This document shows positions 3,610 through 6,600 of a stretch of DNA of 64,000 nt, piece by piece. Under the pieces are notes generated by a model that ran no database searches, had not been told where the DNA came from, and saw only the letters and a program-made list of their open reading frames with translations. Source of the stretch: Methanothrix sp. (GTDB taxonomy: Archaea; Halobacteriota; Methanosarcinia; Methanotrichales; Methanotrichaceae). The DNA lies in contig OY821645.1 in the NCBI GenBank assembly GCA_963682135.1, positions 1,984,001-2,048,000 on the forward strand, in the 5' to 3' direction. Each line of letters begins with the position of its first letter. Positions within the stretch are counted from its first letter, which is position 1. A program made the position numbers and the translations under genes.

Positions 3610-6600
3610 CTAAAAGTCTTCCAGCGTCCCCATTCCCTCATCGGTGGTCGTCAAGCCGAATTCGTCAGCTGGCGGCTGCCAGTCTCCTCCATATCTCTGC
3701 GTCTTCGCCGGCTGTGCCGAGCCGCCCACCACCACCGAGGCGCTGACATCGGCGCTGGCCGATCCTGATCCATCCAGGCTGTAGGCCTGCAGATGAGCCT
3801 GATTGGTATAGGCGCCATTTCTCTTGGCCTGGGCGCTGTAGGATATGGTCTCGACCTCGCCTGGCGGTACCGCCGTCAGGGTCCAGGTGGTCTGATCCGC
3901 ACTGTAATCAGACGGTGTCTGGGAAGAGGTGATGATCGACAGGTCGGGCGGCATGTAATCGACTACCTGTACGGCCATAGGACTGCTTGCCGTATTCTTG
4001 ATGCTGATCTTGTAGTGGATCAGAGTGGGATCTGCCGGGTCCAGGGTTGCAGTCTTCTCAGCCAGAAGCTGCGGCTGGCAGCATGGCAGCCCTGCCCTTT
4101 CCATGGCAGAGATGTTCCTGCCCACAGTCTGACCACTGCTGTGCCATCCCGTAGCCTCCACCACATTCACCAGATCTCCTGCCTCTTCTGTGACATTCAG
4201 CCGAAGCTTGATGGTATTGGTGCTTCCTATGCCCAGGGAGACAATGGTCCAGTTGGCATATTCCGCAGTCTGTTCAGCCGGCCGCAGCGAGGCGTCGATG
4301 AACTGGGTGCCCGCTGGGAAGGTATCGCGGACATAAATCGGGCCCAGCGATCGGCTGCCGTCATTGATCATGGTTATGGTGTACTCGGCTATGGTCGCGT
4401 TTACCTTCTTCAACAATCCATATGTCAGGCGGCCATCCTTCCAGACCGTGATATGAGGCACTTCGTACCTGGAAACACCAGTGAGTGCGGTCTTGCGGCT
4501 GATGATGAACTCGCCTGCATATTGCTCATCCATGTCGATCCGATCCGAACTGTCCTCAACGCCGCTGCTGTTTCCAGAGAGCCTTGTGCCGGCCCCGTCT
4601 TTGCCGCTCTCCAGAAGTGTCCGCAAGCGCGCCTGGCCCTTGAATTGAGCCTCTGTATTCATCTCGCTGAGGCCTTTGATCTCAGTCGTCTTGTTCATAG
4701 AGTCCAGACTGCTGAATTGCTGGCCGATGTAGCTCTTGAGGGTTGAGTCCACACCTGCAATGCAGCTCTTATTGGTCAGTCCTCCTCCCCGCAGCTTTGC
4801 GTTACCGCTCTTGGTATACATCCCCTCATTCCATTTCATGGATTGGTTTACAGCTAGCTGCGGCGTGTAGTTGAAGCTGGACGGCTCGTAGACCAGCTTT
4901 ATATCCTTGGCCATGTAGCTTGAGCCGCTTACCACCTCTTCTTCTACATTGTAGCTTCCCGTGCCGTACTCATAGGTGCCCTGGCTGGAACGGACCGTCT
5001 TGGCCGTCGAGACGGTTCCATTGCCCTGCACGGAGCGGTTGGTCATGACGTTCTCCCCGTACTCATCAGCATATTCGCTGATGTTGAAGCGTCCTGCATA
5101 ATCCTCACGTGATTCGAAGACCGGCTTTTCAAAGGGCTTCACCACATCGGTCTCCTTCTTGAGAACGCCGATGTGTCCGGCTCCCTCGAATTTTACATCC
5201 GTCTTCATAGTGCTGCCGTTCTCGCTCATCTTGAGGCTCTGGTTTCGTTCGATGCTGGTGGCATAGCGGTAGGATTCCCTAACTGATGCCTTGGAGATCT
5301 CGTTTTTGCCGCGTATATCTTCCGTCCATCGGTCCGCGTAGACTATTGATCTGTTGGCCGGCAGCTTGAAGCTGGTGGGACGATGGGTGGCGGATAGGCT
5401 GGTGATGGACTCTGTGGTTCGGTTTTCTGTAATAAGTCGGGAGATATGCTCGGTCTGATAATTGCCGCTGCCGCTCTCCCTGACGCTTATTACTGTCCCT
5501 GGTTTTTCAACCAGTGTTACGCTGGCAGATGTGCTTATCGGGCCAGTCTCGCTTGATGTTATTCTTGCCTGGTTGGTGATTGTGTAGGGCTCTGGCCTGG
5601 TGTCCATATCATTGTGCACTCTTACGAATCCTTCTCCCTTTACGCTCTGCTGCATTGTAAATGTGAGATTGGCTCTCTCGGGCATGAGAAGAGTTACTTC
5701 TATCTGCCCGGACTCACTCTGCTTGAGCGTGCCTATGGTCCAGACGCTGTTGTTGCCCTGATCTGGCGAGATGCTTGCCGAGAGGAAAATGCTTCCTTTG
5801 GGATAGAACTCAGTCAGGACCACATTATGAAGGTCAATGTTGCCCTCATTGGCGAAGGTGATTTTGAACACCGCCTCTCCACCGGAGGCTACCGATTTTG
5901 TAAGGCAGGTCTTGGTCAGATTGAGGATTGGCTTAATCACTATTGGGTCTTGCTTGGCGTATACTCCGGCATCCAGGCTCAGGTCCGTCTCTCCCAAATC
6001 GATCTGGAATACAGCAGTCTTGCCGCTGGAATCGGGATTGCTGTCCTTGTCCGTATTGGTGCCCTGGTTTTGCCCGGTGAAGACAAATCCGTCCGGCAAA
6101 CCGAATATCAGGTAGTACTGGCCGGGCGATACCTTGAACAGGTACTTTCCATTCTCATCGGTGGTGGTGCTGCCAATCTCTTTTCCATCCTGGGAATATA
6201 GAGTCACTTTTATGTCTACTATCCCGGGTTCGCCATCATCCTGGATGCCGTCTTTGTTGTAATCGACCCATACGAAGTCGCCCAGTGCAGTAGTGACTAT
6301 TGGGTCTTGCTTGGTGTATACTCCTGCGTCCAGGCTCAGATCTGCCTGTCCCGGATCGATCTGGAATACAGCAGTCTTGCCGCTGGAATCGGGATTGCTG
6401 TCCTTGTCCGTATCGGTGCCCTGGTTTTGCTTGGTAAAGTCAAATCCGTCCGGCAATCCGAATATCAGGTAGTACTGGCCGGGTGAGACCTCGAATAGGT
6501 ACTTTCCATTCTCATCGGTGTTCGTGCTGCCAATCTCTTTTCCATCCTGGGAATATAGAGTCACTTTTATGTCTACTATCCCAGGTTCGCCATCATCCTG

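What the first reader, a model, noticed from the sequence alone, without database searches (positions are those of the whole stretch)
4484..5667. Anchorless giant adhesin ends in two copies of a domain that also exists as stand-alone secreted proteins: candidate sheath co-assembly display system
Seen: the 6159-aa protein has no C-terminal TM helix or PGF/LPXTG-type tail (it ends ...DEGMGTLEDF). Its C-terminal module matches the whole mature 38089-39018 protein motif by motif and in order: QSVKGEGF/ASVQGVGY, RESGSGNY/KESGSGNV, RPTSF/MPVSY, DRW..GKN..ESY..ERN/QKW..VQN..EMY..QRN, GAGHIGVL/GVAHIGWL, EDYAGRFNI/EDLAGVFSI. A second, more diverged copy follows (RSVQGNG, EYGTGSY, YEPSSF, MKWNE, GQARL, EQYAGEFII). 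32822-33472 is a third family member. All three proteins carry LPC motifs (GLPCC; LPCC and WLPCT; LPCP). Established: Methanothrix filaments are enclosed in a proteinaceous, amyloid-like sheath built from a secreted major sheath protein (MspA) and reinforced by disulfides. Inference: this family may be sheath subunits, and fusing such domains to a huge Ig-repeat passenger would anchor it by co-polymerisation. I cannot confirm MspA homology from memory.
Basis: partly seen in the sequence, partly recalled or inferred. Interest (0 to 1): 0.88.

Follow-up and report, generated by a model that had tools for sequence, protein, structure and literature searches.

The report
Giant sheath adhesin of Methanothrix
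The giant surface protein carries two copies of the building block from which this archaeon's protective tube (sheath) is thought to be made, so it is probably woven into the sheath rather than tied to the membrane, an idea that was already published in 2024.

Summary
Residues 5472-5880 of the 6159-aa protein (window 4456-5667, minus strand) are a tandem duplication of an all-beta module of about 200 aa with no Pfam, NCBIfam or PDB match. The module is related to the small secreted proteins at 38089-39018 and 32822-33472 (hhalign E 3.8e-7 and 2.6e-6; HMM E 1e-5 to 1e-8). The giant has a signal peptide and no other hydrophobic segment. One detail is imprecise: two DUF11 domains and a tail (about 275 aa) follow the two copies. 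The same cassette ends 10 giant proteins in this genome. An iterated HMM finds 28 ORFs with 37 modules.

The family matches the archaeal sheath (SH) protein family of Medvedeva et al., ISME J 2024 (PMC11576556). It agrees in size, signal peptide, tandem clusters and distribution: 81 of 81 Methanotrichales genomes, and ANME-1. Its M. thermoacetophila orthologue probably corresponds to Mthe_0668. That paper already describes repeated SH cores and "sheath adhesins" proposed to replace membrane anchors. MspA homology is refuted (hhalign probability 0.2-2.3%; MspA found in 3 of 81 genomes and not in this one). Co-assembly remains a model, and my complex prediction gave no verdict. This is already known, so interest is low to moderate.

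The parts
3610..22089 (-). Giant secreted protein, 6159 aa (sheath adhesin)
   Evidence: It is a single open frame. Pfam finds SdrD_B repeats (9 + 17 + 4 stretches) and DUF11 (3 + 3 stretches).
21934..21999 (-). Signal-peptide-like hydrophobic segment (residues 31-52, FLVKRICLALFLLIVLTVSAHG)
   Evidence: It is the only segment of the frame with KD19 above 1.6. The cleavage site was not predicted with a dedicated tool.
5956..15900 (-). Passenger: about 30 SdrD B-like (prealbumin/Ig-like) repeats. The limits are approximate.
   Evidence: Pfam PF17210 stretches. The region upstream of it (residues about 50-2050) holds DUF11 and unassigned beta-rich sequence.
5650..5925 (-). DUF11 domain directly before the modules (P0001 residues 426-517)
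   Evidence: Pfam PF01345 best stretch. AF2 gives a beta-sandwich with pLDDT above 90.
5053..5667 (-). SH-core module 1 (about 205 aa; QSVKGEGF ... EDYAGRFNI)
   Evidence: hhalign against the small-protein family gives E 3.8e-7. The module is conserved in 10 paralogous giants. In AF2 it is all-beta with 11 strands, five of them 20-22 residues long, at pLDDT above 90.
4456..5052 (-). SH-core module 2 (about 199 aa; RSVQGNG ... EQYAGEFII), a diverged tandem copy
   Evidence: hhalign module 1 vs module 2 gives probability 97.7%, E 1.9e-12. The AF2 model has long beta-strands and two low-confidence loops.
3730..4455 (-). Two DUF11 domains with the conserved W..LPCC motif (here GLPCC) between them
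   Evidence: Pfam DUF11 and TIGR01451. Alignment of 10 cassettes. AF2.
3613..3729 (-). C-terminal tail with the conserved W-x-P-P..(W/F)GL motif. It has no hydrophobic helix and is predicted disordered.
   Evidence: Alignment. pLDDT is below 50 for the last 28 or so residues. Hydropathy.
38089..39018 (-). Single-module secreted SH protein, 309 aa, with a cap-like insertion. It ends ...VDWLPCT.
   Evidence: It has 1951 relatives, with named ones from Methanothrix or Methanotrichaceae, and is found in 81 of 81 genomes of the order. Five Cys are invariant in 60 sequences. Its orthologue in G003 is ABK14458.1.
32822..33472 (+). Short single-module secreted SH protein, 216 aa. It ends ...LTLPCP.
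   Evidence: The small-protein HMM hits it at E 5.1e-8 and the giant-module HMM at E 8.6e-5. There is a paralogue at G000 1075666-1076214 with 51% identity.

Best explanation
The 404-aa region holds two consecutive copies of the core domain of the archaeal sheath (SH) protein family. The giant protein is a 'sheath adhesin'.

Proposed mechanism: the protein is exported by its N-terminal signal peptide. Its two SH cores then take the place of two ordinary subunits in the cross-beta rings of the tubular sheath, next to the abundant small SH proteins. Those include the genes at 38089-39018 and 32822-33472 and the tandem cluster about 50 kb beyond the window. About 5400 residues of DUF11 and SdrD-B Ig-like repeats are left projecting outward. 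Conserved cysteines (W-LPC/LPCC motif, Cys-rich tails) probably add disulfide links.

Shown here:
- the duplication;
- homology of the module to the small secreted proteins;
- a conserved C-terminal cassette on variable passengers;
- the absence of any membrane anchor;
- a taxonomic distribution that matches sheathed lineages.

Taken from the literature: this family forms the sheath. The sources are the cryo-ET study of Methanospirillum SH and the structure and transcript arguments for Methanothrix.

Inferred only: insertion of the giant into the rings and the role of the cysteines.
For: Homology. Module-to-module and module-to-small-protein relationships are supported.

A shared cassette on variable passengers.
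- The same cassette (DUF11, module, module, DUF11, LPCC, DUF11, WxPPxWGL tail) ends 10 giant ORFs of 1414-6167 aa in this genome. Nine have two modules and one has a single module.
- An exhaustive search finds only 240 cluster representatives at E <= 1e-3. Of the 150 listed, most are large multidomain proteins. The shorter ones look like fragments or single-module forms.
- The passengers vary: SdrD_B/SpaA, NosD beta-helix, DUF11.

No membrane anchor. None of the 10 giants has a hydrophobic segment in its last 300 aa (max KD19 1.04). All have an N-terminal one.

Structure. AF2 of the cassette gives pLDDT 88.8 and pTM 0.80. The modules are all-beta with very long strands. This is compatible with the published two-sheet amyloid-like core.

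Distribution.
- The small family is in 81 of 81 genomes and 15 of 15 genera of the order.
- The tandem module is in 77 of 81.
- In a phylum sample it is in 13 of 301 genomes: G000, 8 of 8 from the same family, 3 of 38 in one other family and 1 of 46 in another.
- The 3-of-38 family is named Methanophagales (ANME-1) by a record title, on assembly QENH01. That assembly is drawn in Fig. 2 of PMC11576556.

Published description (PMC11576556, sections 5 and 9). SH proteins are reported in all Methanotrichales and 40% of ANME-1, at 150-350 aa without Ig domains, in tandem clusters and at up to 40 copies. The paper counts 63 proteins with 2-3 consecutive cores and names 'sheath adhesins'.

Link to a named SH protein. 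The G003 orthologue of the 38089 gene is ABK14458.1, and its neighbour is ABK14457.1. They lie about eight sizeable ORFs before the S-layer-domain gene. PMC10470525 Table 3 lists three such genes, Mthe_0149, 0677 and 1177, and this one is the middle of three hits in matching order. That fits Mthe_0668 and Mthe_0667, the two most transcribed SH genes.

N-glycosylation sites. 12 of the giant's 20 N-x-S/T sequons fall in the 404-aa module, against 4.5 expected from composition.
Against: - No experiment places this protein, or any Methanothrix SH protein, in a sheath. The published assignment for Methanothrix rests on structure prediction and transcript levels.
- I could not compare the module with the Methanospirillum SH structure or with the authors' HMMs. 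Supplements are closed, there is no PDB entry, and I had no model coordinates. Foldseek on the whole cassette returned only Ig-chain proteins at TM 0.10-0.16.
- The mapping of ABK14458.1 to Mthe_0668 is an inference from gene order and accession spacing. The last look-up failed.
- The cassette folds confidently as a closed monomer, so its two cores could satisfy each other rather than neighbours.
- MS/MS of M. thermophila sheaths (Dueholm 2015, known to me only through PMC6242892 and PMC10470525) found MspA, not this family.
- AF2 of the small protein alone was poor (pLDDT 51.4), and its conserved segments scored lowest.
Confidence: 0.72

Rival explanations
1. The cassette is a sheath- or wall-binding anchor, not a sheath brick. 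The two SH-like cores pack against each other as a closed pseudo-dimer. This unit docks non-covalently or by disulfides onto the outside of the finished sheath or onto the S-layer-like wall, without being inserted into the rings.
For: AF2 gives a confident compact monomer for the whole cassette (pTM 0.80). The cores are flanked on both sides by DUF11 domains. In single-core proteins the WLPCC motif follows the core directly, but here a DUF11 insertion displaces it. The Cys-rich tails (2-6 Cys in the last 60 aa in 8 of 10 giants) would suit disulfide tethering.
Against: Nine of the 10 giants keep two full cores with the same conserved strand motifs as the polymerising small proteins. The ANME-1 relative carries three cores at its very end with no DUF11 after them. 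The published AF2 models show mixed SH proteins forming one continuous cross-beta ring (PMC11576556, section 9).
Confidence: 0.14
2. The family builds a different envelope element, such as spacer plugs, the inner wall or hoop connectors. The tube itself would be made of lineage-specific proteins such as MspA. The giant would then be displayed from that other element.
For: MspA was the protein recovered from depolymerised M. thermophila sheaths (as cited in PMC6242892 and PMC10470525) and is very highly expressed (181-206 times the median, PMC10470525 Table 3). G003 has both MspA and the SH-like family.
Against: MspA homologues were found in only 3 of 81 genomes of an order whose cultured members are sheathed, and not in G000, which is 99.87% complete. 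The SH-like family is in 81 of 81. PMC11576556 reports no predicted dimerisation and no structural likeness to SH for MspA.
Confidence: 0.08
3. The giant is simply secreted and released as a free or matrix adhesin. On this reading the module is a folding or export domain with no role in attachment.
For: There is no anchor of any known type and no direct evidence of attachment.
Against: A roughly 700-aa cassette is conserved at 33-43% identity across 10 paralogues with unrelated passengers and across 13 of 15 genera. This is the usual signature of a shared localisation device. The module is homologous to a universally conserved, multi-copy structural family.
Confidence: 0.06

Closest known systems
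Archaeal SH (sheath) proteins and 'sheath adhesins' (Medvedeva, Borrel and Gribaldo, ISME J 2024, PMC11576556)
   Same: Shared features: a signal peptide; an all-beta core with small forms of 150-350 aa; many copies per genome (28 ORFs here, up to 40 published); tandem clusters; presence in all Methanotrichales and part of ANME-1; forms with 2-3 consecutive cores; forms with long Ig-like chains proposed to replace membrane-anchored adhesins.
   Different: Nothing of principle differs. Three details are not in the parts of the paper I read. First, the fixed cassette order DUF11, core, core, DUF11, LPCC, DUF11, WxPPxWGL tail. Second, the nearly invariant C-terminal W-LPC-x end of the small forms. 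Third, the concentration of N-glycosylation sequons in the cores. I could not see the supplementary tables, which may list this very protein.
Methanospirillum hungatei sheath protein SH (Mhun_2271, WP_011449234.1; PMC10593813, PMC6242892)
   Same: It is a secreted, beta-rich, multi-copy family. Subunits form rings linked by disulfides. It is the structural template by which the Methanothrix family was recognised in the literature.
   Different: My profile from the giants detected no sequence similarity in Methanomicrobiales-type families of the phylum sample (families are unnamed, so this is indirect). The published link is structural. The Methanospirillum forms carry no Ig-like extensions (PMC11576556, section 10 passage).
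MspA of Methanothrix thermoacetophila (Mthe_1069, ABK14853.1)
   Same: It is a secreted, highly expressed protein recovered from sheath preparations, and it has a few cysteines.
   Different: It is not homologous: hhalign probability 0.18% and 2.3%, and module HMMs give negative bit scores. It is 575 aa and 60.9 kDa. It was found in 3 of 81 genomes, and there is no homologue in the window's genome (best phmmer E 0.48 among 20,130 ORFs).
Staphylococcal MSCRAMM SdrC/SdrD adhesins
   Same: The passenger is built of about 30 SdrD B-like repeats. It is a long stalk of prealbumin-like domains on a cell surface.
   Different: There is no ligand-binding A domain, SD repeat or LPXTG sorting signal. NCBIfam scores are 230.8 and 220.4 bits against cut-offs of 2500 and 1700. 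Only the repeat fold is shared.

Membership tests
Archaeal SH (sheath) protein family sensu PMC11576556 | N-terminal signal peptide for export | tested here: met
   There is a hydrophobic N-terminal segment in the giant and in all 9 other cassette proteins (KD19 1.82-2.73). Signal-like N-termini are visible in the small proteins. No dedicated signal-peptide predictor was available.
Archaeal SH (sheath) protein family sensu PMC11576556 | Core of two beta-sheets, each of six antiparallel strands | tested here: inconclusive
   AF2 of the cassette (pLDDT 88.8) gives all-beta modules. Module 1 has 11 strands, five of them 20-22 residues long, and module 2 is similar. Only the DSSP string was returned and no coordinates, so the two-sheet arrangement could not be checked.
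Archaeal SH (sheath) protein family sensu PMC11576556 | Structural or profile similarity to M. hungatei SH (WP_011449234.1) or to the authors' SH HMMs | not testable with these tools
   The SH model is not in the PDB (PMC10593813 data-availability passage), and PDB sequence searches gave 0 hits at E <= 10. The HMMs are in a supplement, which is closed. Whole-cassette Foldseek was dominated by Ig domains.
Archaeal SH (sheath) protein family sensu PMC11576556 | Orthology to the Methanothrix SH proteins named in the paper (Mthe_0668, Mthe_0667, Mthe_0625) | tested here: met
   Met by inference, not by a printed locus tag. The small-family profile hits G003 703906-704631. That ORF is ABK14458.1, next to ABK14457.1, and a third member is ABK14416.1. 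Gene order relative to the S-layer-domain gene taken to be Mthe_0677 (about 8 sizeable ORFs plus 2 tRNAs) fits 0668, 0667 and about 0625. So does accession spacing relative to ABK14853.1 = Mthe_1069. The mapping could be off by a locus or two.
Archaeal SH (sheath) protein family sensu PMC11576556 | Distribution: all Methanotrichales, part of ANME-1; many copies; tandem clusters | tested here: met
   Found in 81 of 81 genomes. 3 of 38 genomes of one other family hit, one of them on a contig titled Methanophagales, assembly QENH01. There are 28 ORFs in G000, with four copies in tandem at G000 2097-2104 kb.
Archaeal SH (sheath) protein family sensu PMC11576556 | Physical presence in the sheath | not testable with these tools
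   This needs proteomics or imaging. No RNA or protein data for this organism were reachable (see Tried and rejected).
Sheath adhesin subclass (SH core plus chain of Ig-like domains) | SH core fused to multiple Ig-like domains, without a membrane anchor | tested here: met
   The giant has two cores, about 30 SdrD_B repeats and at least 6 DUF11 stretches. There is no hydrophobic segment apart from the signal peptide.
MspA (Mthe_1069) family | Detectable sequence or profile similarity to ABK14853.1 | tested here: not met
   hhalign A3 vs MspA: probability 0.18%, E 0.32. A1 vs MspA: 2.3%, E 0.02. Module and small-family HMMs give bit scores of 0.6 or less.
Archaeal or bacterial C-terminal sorting signals (PGF-CTERM, LPXTG and the like) | C-terminal motif followed by a hydrophobic helix | tested here: not met
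   Maximum KD19 in the last 300 aa is 0.74. NCBIfam gives only a sub-threshold Por_Secre_tail match (19.8 bits vs cut-off 23), and it lies inside an SdrD_B repeat, not at the C-terminus.
MSCRAMM SdrC/SdrD | Full-length match above the NCBIfam cut-off (A domain, B repeats, SD repeats, LPXTG) | tested here: not met
   230.8 bits vs 2500 and 220.4 bits vs 1700. Only the B repeats match.

The most novel reading that the evidence does not exclude
Beyond the published 'sheath adhesin' idea, the Methanothrix giants may share a fixed, specialised insertion cassette. It would be a double SH brick clamped by DUF11 domains, with the conserved W-LPCC cysteines moved outward by a DUF11 insertion and a WxPPxWGL/Cys-rich tail. 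This cassette would be placed at defined sites in the sheath, such as hoop boundaries, and stapled there covalently by disulfides. The N-glycans concentrated on the cores (12 of 20 sequons in 6.6% of the length, while the passenger is about six-fold depleted) would mark or protect the lattice. On this reading the small proteins' invariant C-terminal W-LPC-x end is the matching inter-subunit staple.
Probability: 0.25. Interest if true: 0.5.

Novelty: already known. Interest (0 to 1): 0.25.

Why it matters
Methanothrix accounts for a large share of biogenic methane. It meets syntrophic partners, parasites and viruses through its sheath. Knowing that its giant adhesins are probably built into the sheath lattice, not tied to the membrane, shows where to look for partner-contact and virus-receptor functions. 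That insight is already in print, however. This window adds one well-dissected example: exact module borders, the cassette order, conserved cysteines and sequons. It also adds an independent confirmation, by sequence profiles and genome counts, of two published claims: the family is universal in the order, and MspA is sporadic and unrelated.

Tried and rejected
- Pfam and NCBIfam on the small proteins and the module found no family.
- PDB sequence searches with both profiles gave 0 hits at E <= 10.
- The ESM Atlas gave no usable hit for either query.
- Foldseek of the whole cassette against PDB and BFVD returned only Ig-chain proteins such as integrin alpha, alpha-2-macroglobulin and a DUF11 protein, at TM 0.08-0.16. 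This says nothing about the module.
- AF2 of the 309-aa protein with a shallow alignment (60 sequences, 63-91% identical) gave pLDDT 51.4. It was too poor to search with.
- Complex prediction (modules vs mature 309-aa protein) returned 'no answer', score 0.01 against a mark of 0.32, and controls were not run. I count it neither for nor against binding.
- The look-up of sequencing runs listed no RNA holder (6 rows, 2 studies, all kept as contigs). I therefore did not use read laying and have no expression evidence.
- tblastn of the 309-aa protein against the phage collection found no match.
- The neighbours of the three window genes are housekeeping or unassigned genes: exonuclease VII, CbiMQ/ABC, a PAS histidine kinase, SRP54, DUF1614 and others. 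This gives no functional clue, in line with the paper's remark that SH genes lack a conserved context.
- I noticed that some G003 family members lie at 62-81 kb, and I read the gas-vesicle gene table of PMC10470525. I did not locate the gvp genes on the contig, so I draw no link.
- I considered an outer-membrane-like beta-barrel because one JGI name reads 'opacity protein-like surface antigen'. I dropped it because archaea of this group have no outer membrane, and I had no coordinates to check.
- The supplementary tables and HMMs of PMC11576556 (list of SH proteins, repeated-core proteins, transcript ratios) were not opened because supplements are closed. They may name this protein and would settle the Mthe_0668 mapping.
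- Dueholm et al. 2015 (PMC4536462) is not held. What I say about it comes from passages in PMC6242892 and PMC10470525.
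Full report
WHAT IS THERE. 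The window lies in a complete 3.04-Mb genome (G000, one contig). The relatives of its proteins are named Methanothrix or Methanotrichaceae by their sources. The minus-strand frame 3610-22089 encodes 6159 aa. Pfam finds the following along the protein:
- DUF11 and unassigned beta-rich sequence in the first 2050 or so residues;
- about 30 SdrD B-like repeats (9 + 17 + 4 stretches);
- a DUF11 domain;
- a stretch of about 400 aa with no match in Pfam or NCBIfam;
- two more DUF11 domains and a short tail.
The finding's coordinates (4484-5667) cover the unmatched stretch. The proteins at 38089-39018 (309 aa from its Met-38 start) and 32822-33472 (216 aa) also match nothing in Pfam or NCBIfam.

CHECK OF THE OBSERVATION. 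All quoted motifs are present and collinear. Pairwise BLASTP alone would not establish homology (E 0.015, 0.29 and 2e-5), so I built profiles.

The unmatched stretch recurs in nine further giant ORFs of the same genome (1414-5328 aa) and in one of 532 aa. In the giants it always lies 185-310 aa from the C-terminus. Aligning the ten C-terminal regions shows one conserved cassette: DUF11, module 1, module 2, DUF11, a W..L-x-CC motif (GLPCC here), DUF11, a W-x-P-P..(W/F)GL motif, and then a short tail that is often Cys-rich.

With profiles made only from these giants:
- module 1 vs module 2 gives hhalign probability 97.7%, E 1.9e-12;
- module 1 vs the family of the 309-aa protein gives 92.9%, E 3.8e-7 over 171 columns, end to end;
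- the tool's own hhalign on alignments A3 and A1 gives 88.6%, E 2.6e-6 over 99 columns;
- module 2 against the small family alone is not significant (E 0.018);
- the giants-only HMM finds the 309-aa ORF at 3.4e-7 and the 216-aa ORF at 8.6e-5 among about 20,400 sequences;
- the small-family HMM finds the 216-aa ORF at 5.1e-8.

An iterated HMM search of all 20,130 ORFs of 60 aa or more converges after two rounds on 28 ORFs with 37 modules. These are ten giants (nine with two modules), the 532-aa protein and 17 small secreted proteins. The E-values of that last round are circular and are not used as evidence.

The giant has a single hydrophobic segment, at the N-terminus. None of the ten giants has one in the last 300 aa.

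WHAT THE MODULE LOOKS LIKE. AlphaFold2 on the last 777 aa used an alignment of 55 sequences (24-45% identity to the query). It gives mean pLDDT 88.8 and pTM 0.80. There are three beta-sandwich DUF11 domains and two all-beta modules. Module 1 has 11 strands, five of them 20-22 residues long. Module 2 is similar, with two low-confidence loops. The last 28 or so residues are disordered. Only the secondary-structure string is returned, so I could not inspect the sheet arrangement.

Whole-cassette Foldseek searches return only chains of Ig-like domains at TM 0.08-0.16. The small protein alone folded poorly (pLDDT 51.4). Its insertion relative to module 1 was confident and its conserved segments were not. 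Its alignment was shallow, so I draw nothing from this.

DISTRIBUTION AND PARTNERS. An exhaustive HMMER search of 1.84 billion cluster representatives finds only 240 at E <= 1e-3 (199 at 1e-10, 119 at 1e-30). Most of the 150 listed are large proteins with the module in the same relative position. Seven of them scanned with Pfam carry different passengers: SdrD_B/SpaA/CarboxypepD_reg repeats, a NosD beta-helix, and DUF11 arrays.

In 81 genomes of the order (including G000), the tandem module is found in 77, covering 13 of 15 genera. The small family is found in 81 of 81 and 15 of 15 genera, usually in many copies.

In a phylum-wide sample of 301 genomes the module is found in 13: G000, 8 of 8 from the same family, 3 of 38 in one other family (all in one genus) and 1 of 46 in another. 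The first outside group carries a 1789-aa protein with a beta-helix, DUF11 domains and three modules at its very end, closing with ...DWLSCP.... Its contig is titled Methanophagales archaeon, assembly QENH01, which is ANME-1. The other genome (G352) has two small family members ending ...DWLGCP and ...DFLGCP. They sit next to an Ig-plus-module protein and an AglB-like ORF with a WWDYG motif.

THE MspA QUESTION. The papers I could read give MspA as Mthe_1069 = ABK14853.1, 60.9 kDa (PMC10470525 passages and Table 3; PMC6242892 abstract and passages). In G003, a 1,879,471-bp genome of the sister genus, I found a 575-aa ORF with calculated mass 60.9 kDa and a signal peptide. An exact look-up returned ABK14853.1, 'hypothetical protein Mthe_1069'.

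This protein has no profile similarity to the modules or to the small family: hhalign 0.18% (E 0.32) and 2.3% (E 0.02), and HMM bit scores of 0.6 or less. It has no homologue among the 20,130 ORFs of the window's genome (best E 0.48). It is detectable in only 3 of 81 genomes of the order, and in one of those it is split over three frames.

WHAT IS ALREADY KNOWN. A literature search on ANME-1 and sheaths led to Medvedeva, Borrel and Gribaldo, ISME J 2024 (PMC11576556). I read the outline, sections 5 and 9 in full, and passages of sections 7, 10 and 12. Starting from the Methanospirillum sheath protein SH, they define a family of SH proteins with these properties:
- a signal peptide;
- an amyloid-like core of two six-stranded antiparallel sheets;
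- variable 'cap' domains;
- a length of 150-350 aa without Ig domains;
- genes in tandem clusters, with up to 40 copies per genome.
The family is present in all Methanotrichales, in Methanospirillum and Methanolinea, in 40% of ANME-1 and in some Thermofilales.

They report 63 proteins with 2-3 consecutive SH cores. [quoted passage not shown] They argue that MspA was misidentified, because of its narrow distribution, no predicted dimerisation and no likeness to SH. [quoted passage not shown] Assembly QENH01 appears in their Figure 2.

My independent counts reproduce their distribution statements for both the family and MspA.

TYING THE WINDOW'S FAMILY TO THEIRS. In G003 the small-family profile hits a 243-aa ORF at 703906-704634. 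It is ABK14458.1. Its neighbour (271 aa) is ABK14457.1. A WLPCC-type member at 650 kb is in the cluster of ABK14416.1.

The S-layer-domain (PF07752) gene at 715.6-717.8 kb is the middle of three such genes, in the same order as Mthe_0149, Mthe_0677 and Mthe_1177 of PMC10470525 Table 3. About eight sizeable ORFs and two tRNA genes lie between it and the 243-aa ORF. The spacing of accession numbers relative to ABK14853.1 = Mthe_1069 is also compatible.

This fits ABK14458.1 = Mthe_0668, ABK14457.1 = Mthe_0667 and ABK14416.1 = about Mthe_0625. It remains an inference, because the locus tags were not printed by any tool and the last look-up failed.

MECHANISM. The best-supported reading (confidence 0.72) runs as follows. 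After export, the giant's two SH cores occupy subunit positions in the cross-beta rings of the sheath, among the small SH proteins, and the 5400-aa stalk projects outward.

Shown: homology, cassette conservation on variable passengers, lack of an anchor, and distribution.
Taken from the literature: the family builds the sheath.
Inferred: incorporation of the giant and disulfide stapling.

Details seen here that I did not find in the parts of the paper I read:
- Five cysteines are invariant in 60 small-family sequences, including the penultimate residue of a W-LPC-x C-terminus.
- The same motif is displaced by a DUF11 insertion in the giants.
- Two sequons are conserved in module 1 in all ten paralogues.
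- 12 of the giant's 20 N-x-S/T sequons lie in the 404-aa module (4.5 expected). The whole protein has 20 where composition predicts 54.7.

RIVALS. There are three:
- the cassette may dock on the sheath rather than enter it (0.14);
- the family may build another envelope element (0.08);
- the giant may simply be released (0.06).
The evidence for and against each is given in the Rival explanations section.

VERDICT. The MspA link is wrong. Novelty: already known. Interest: 0.25.

Noticed in passing
window 3610-22089 (minus strand): N-x-S/T sequons are very unevenly spread. 12 of 20 lie in the 404-aa module (4.5 expected from composition). The remaining 5755 aa hold 8, whereas the whole protein would be expected to hold about 55. 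The passenger looks selected against N-glycosylation sites and the cores for them.
   Followed up: partly
G000:C1:2097529-2104226 and 2098423-2099652 (about 50 kb beyond the window's end): Four tandem copies of the small SH family sit beside a 410-aa protein with an Ig-like domain plus a module-2-like C-terminal half. The same small-SH / 271-aa / Ig-plus-module trio is adjacent in G003 (L035). A similar pairing occurs in G352 (L031).
   Followed up: partly
L031 (G352:C23:17000-26000): In a distant, AT-rich genome of another family, two small SH-like genes and an Ig-plus-module gene lie next to a 625-aa ORF with a WWDYG motif. This ORF looks like the oligosaccharyltransferase AglB (the motif assignment is from my own knowledge). 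The organism was not identified.
   Followed up: no
G051:C3:110070-111816: The only MspA-like match in the window's own genus is split over three open frames of 361, 210 and 113 aa. It may be a pseudogene or carry assembly errors.
   Followed up: no
clusters of P0398 and P0405: Proteins at 90% or more identity to the M. thermoacetophila SH proteins ABK14458.1 and ABK14457.1 are filed under MAGs named Candidatus Methanosuratincola petrocarbonis. This suggests binning contamination or recent transfer.
   Followed up: no
window 38089-39018 (minus strand): In the AF2 model of the 309-aa protein, the variable W/P/D-rich insertion (residues about 70-150 and 200-233) is confident (pLDDT 70-95). The conserved core segments are below 50. 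The insertion is presumably the 'cap'. The alignment was shallow, so the meaning is unclear.
   Followed up: no
window 1-2000 and 62001-64000: Both ends of the window have much lower G+C (0.38 and 0.40) than the rest (0.47-0.57).
   Followed up: no
window 25617-27338, 34044-38020, 40417-41628: Several ORFs of 180-573 aa have no Pfam match at E <= 0.001. I did not examine them further.
   Followed up: no
C-termini of the 10 cassette proteins of G000: A conserved W-x-P-P-(x)-(W/F)-(G/E/D)-L motif precedes tails that carry 2-6 cysteines in 8 of 10 proteins. The window's giant and one other have none. I found no mention of this motif in the parts of PMC11576556 that I read.
   Followed up: partly
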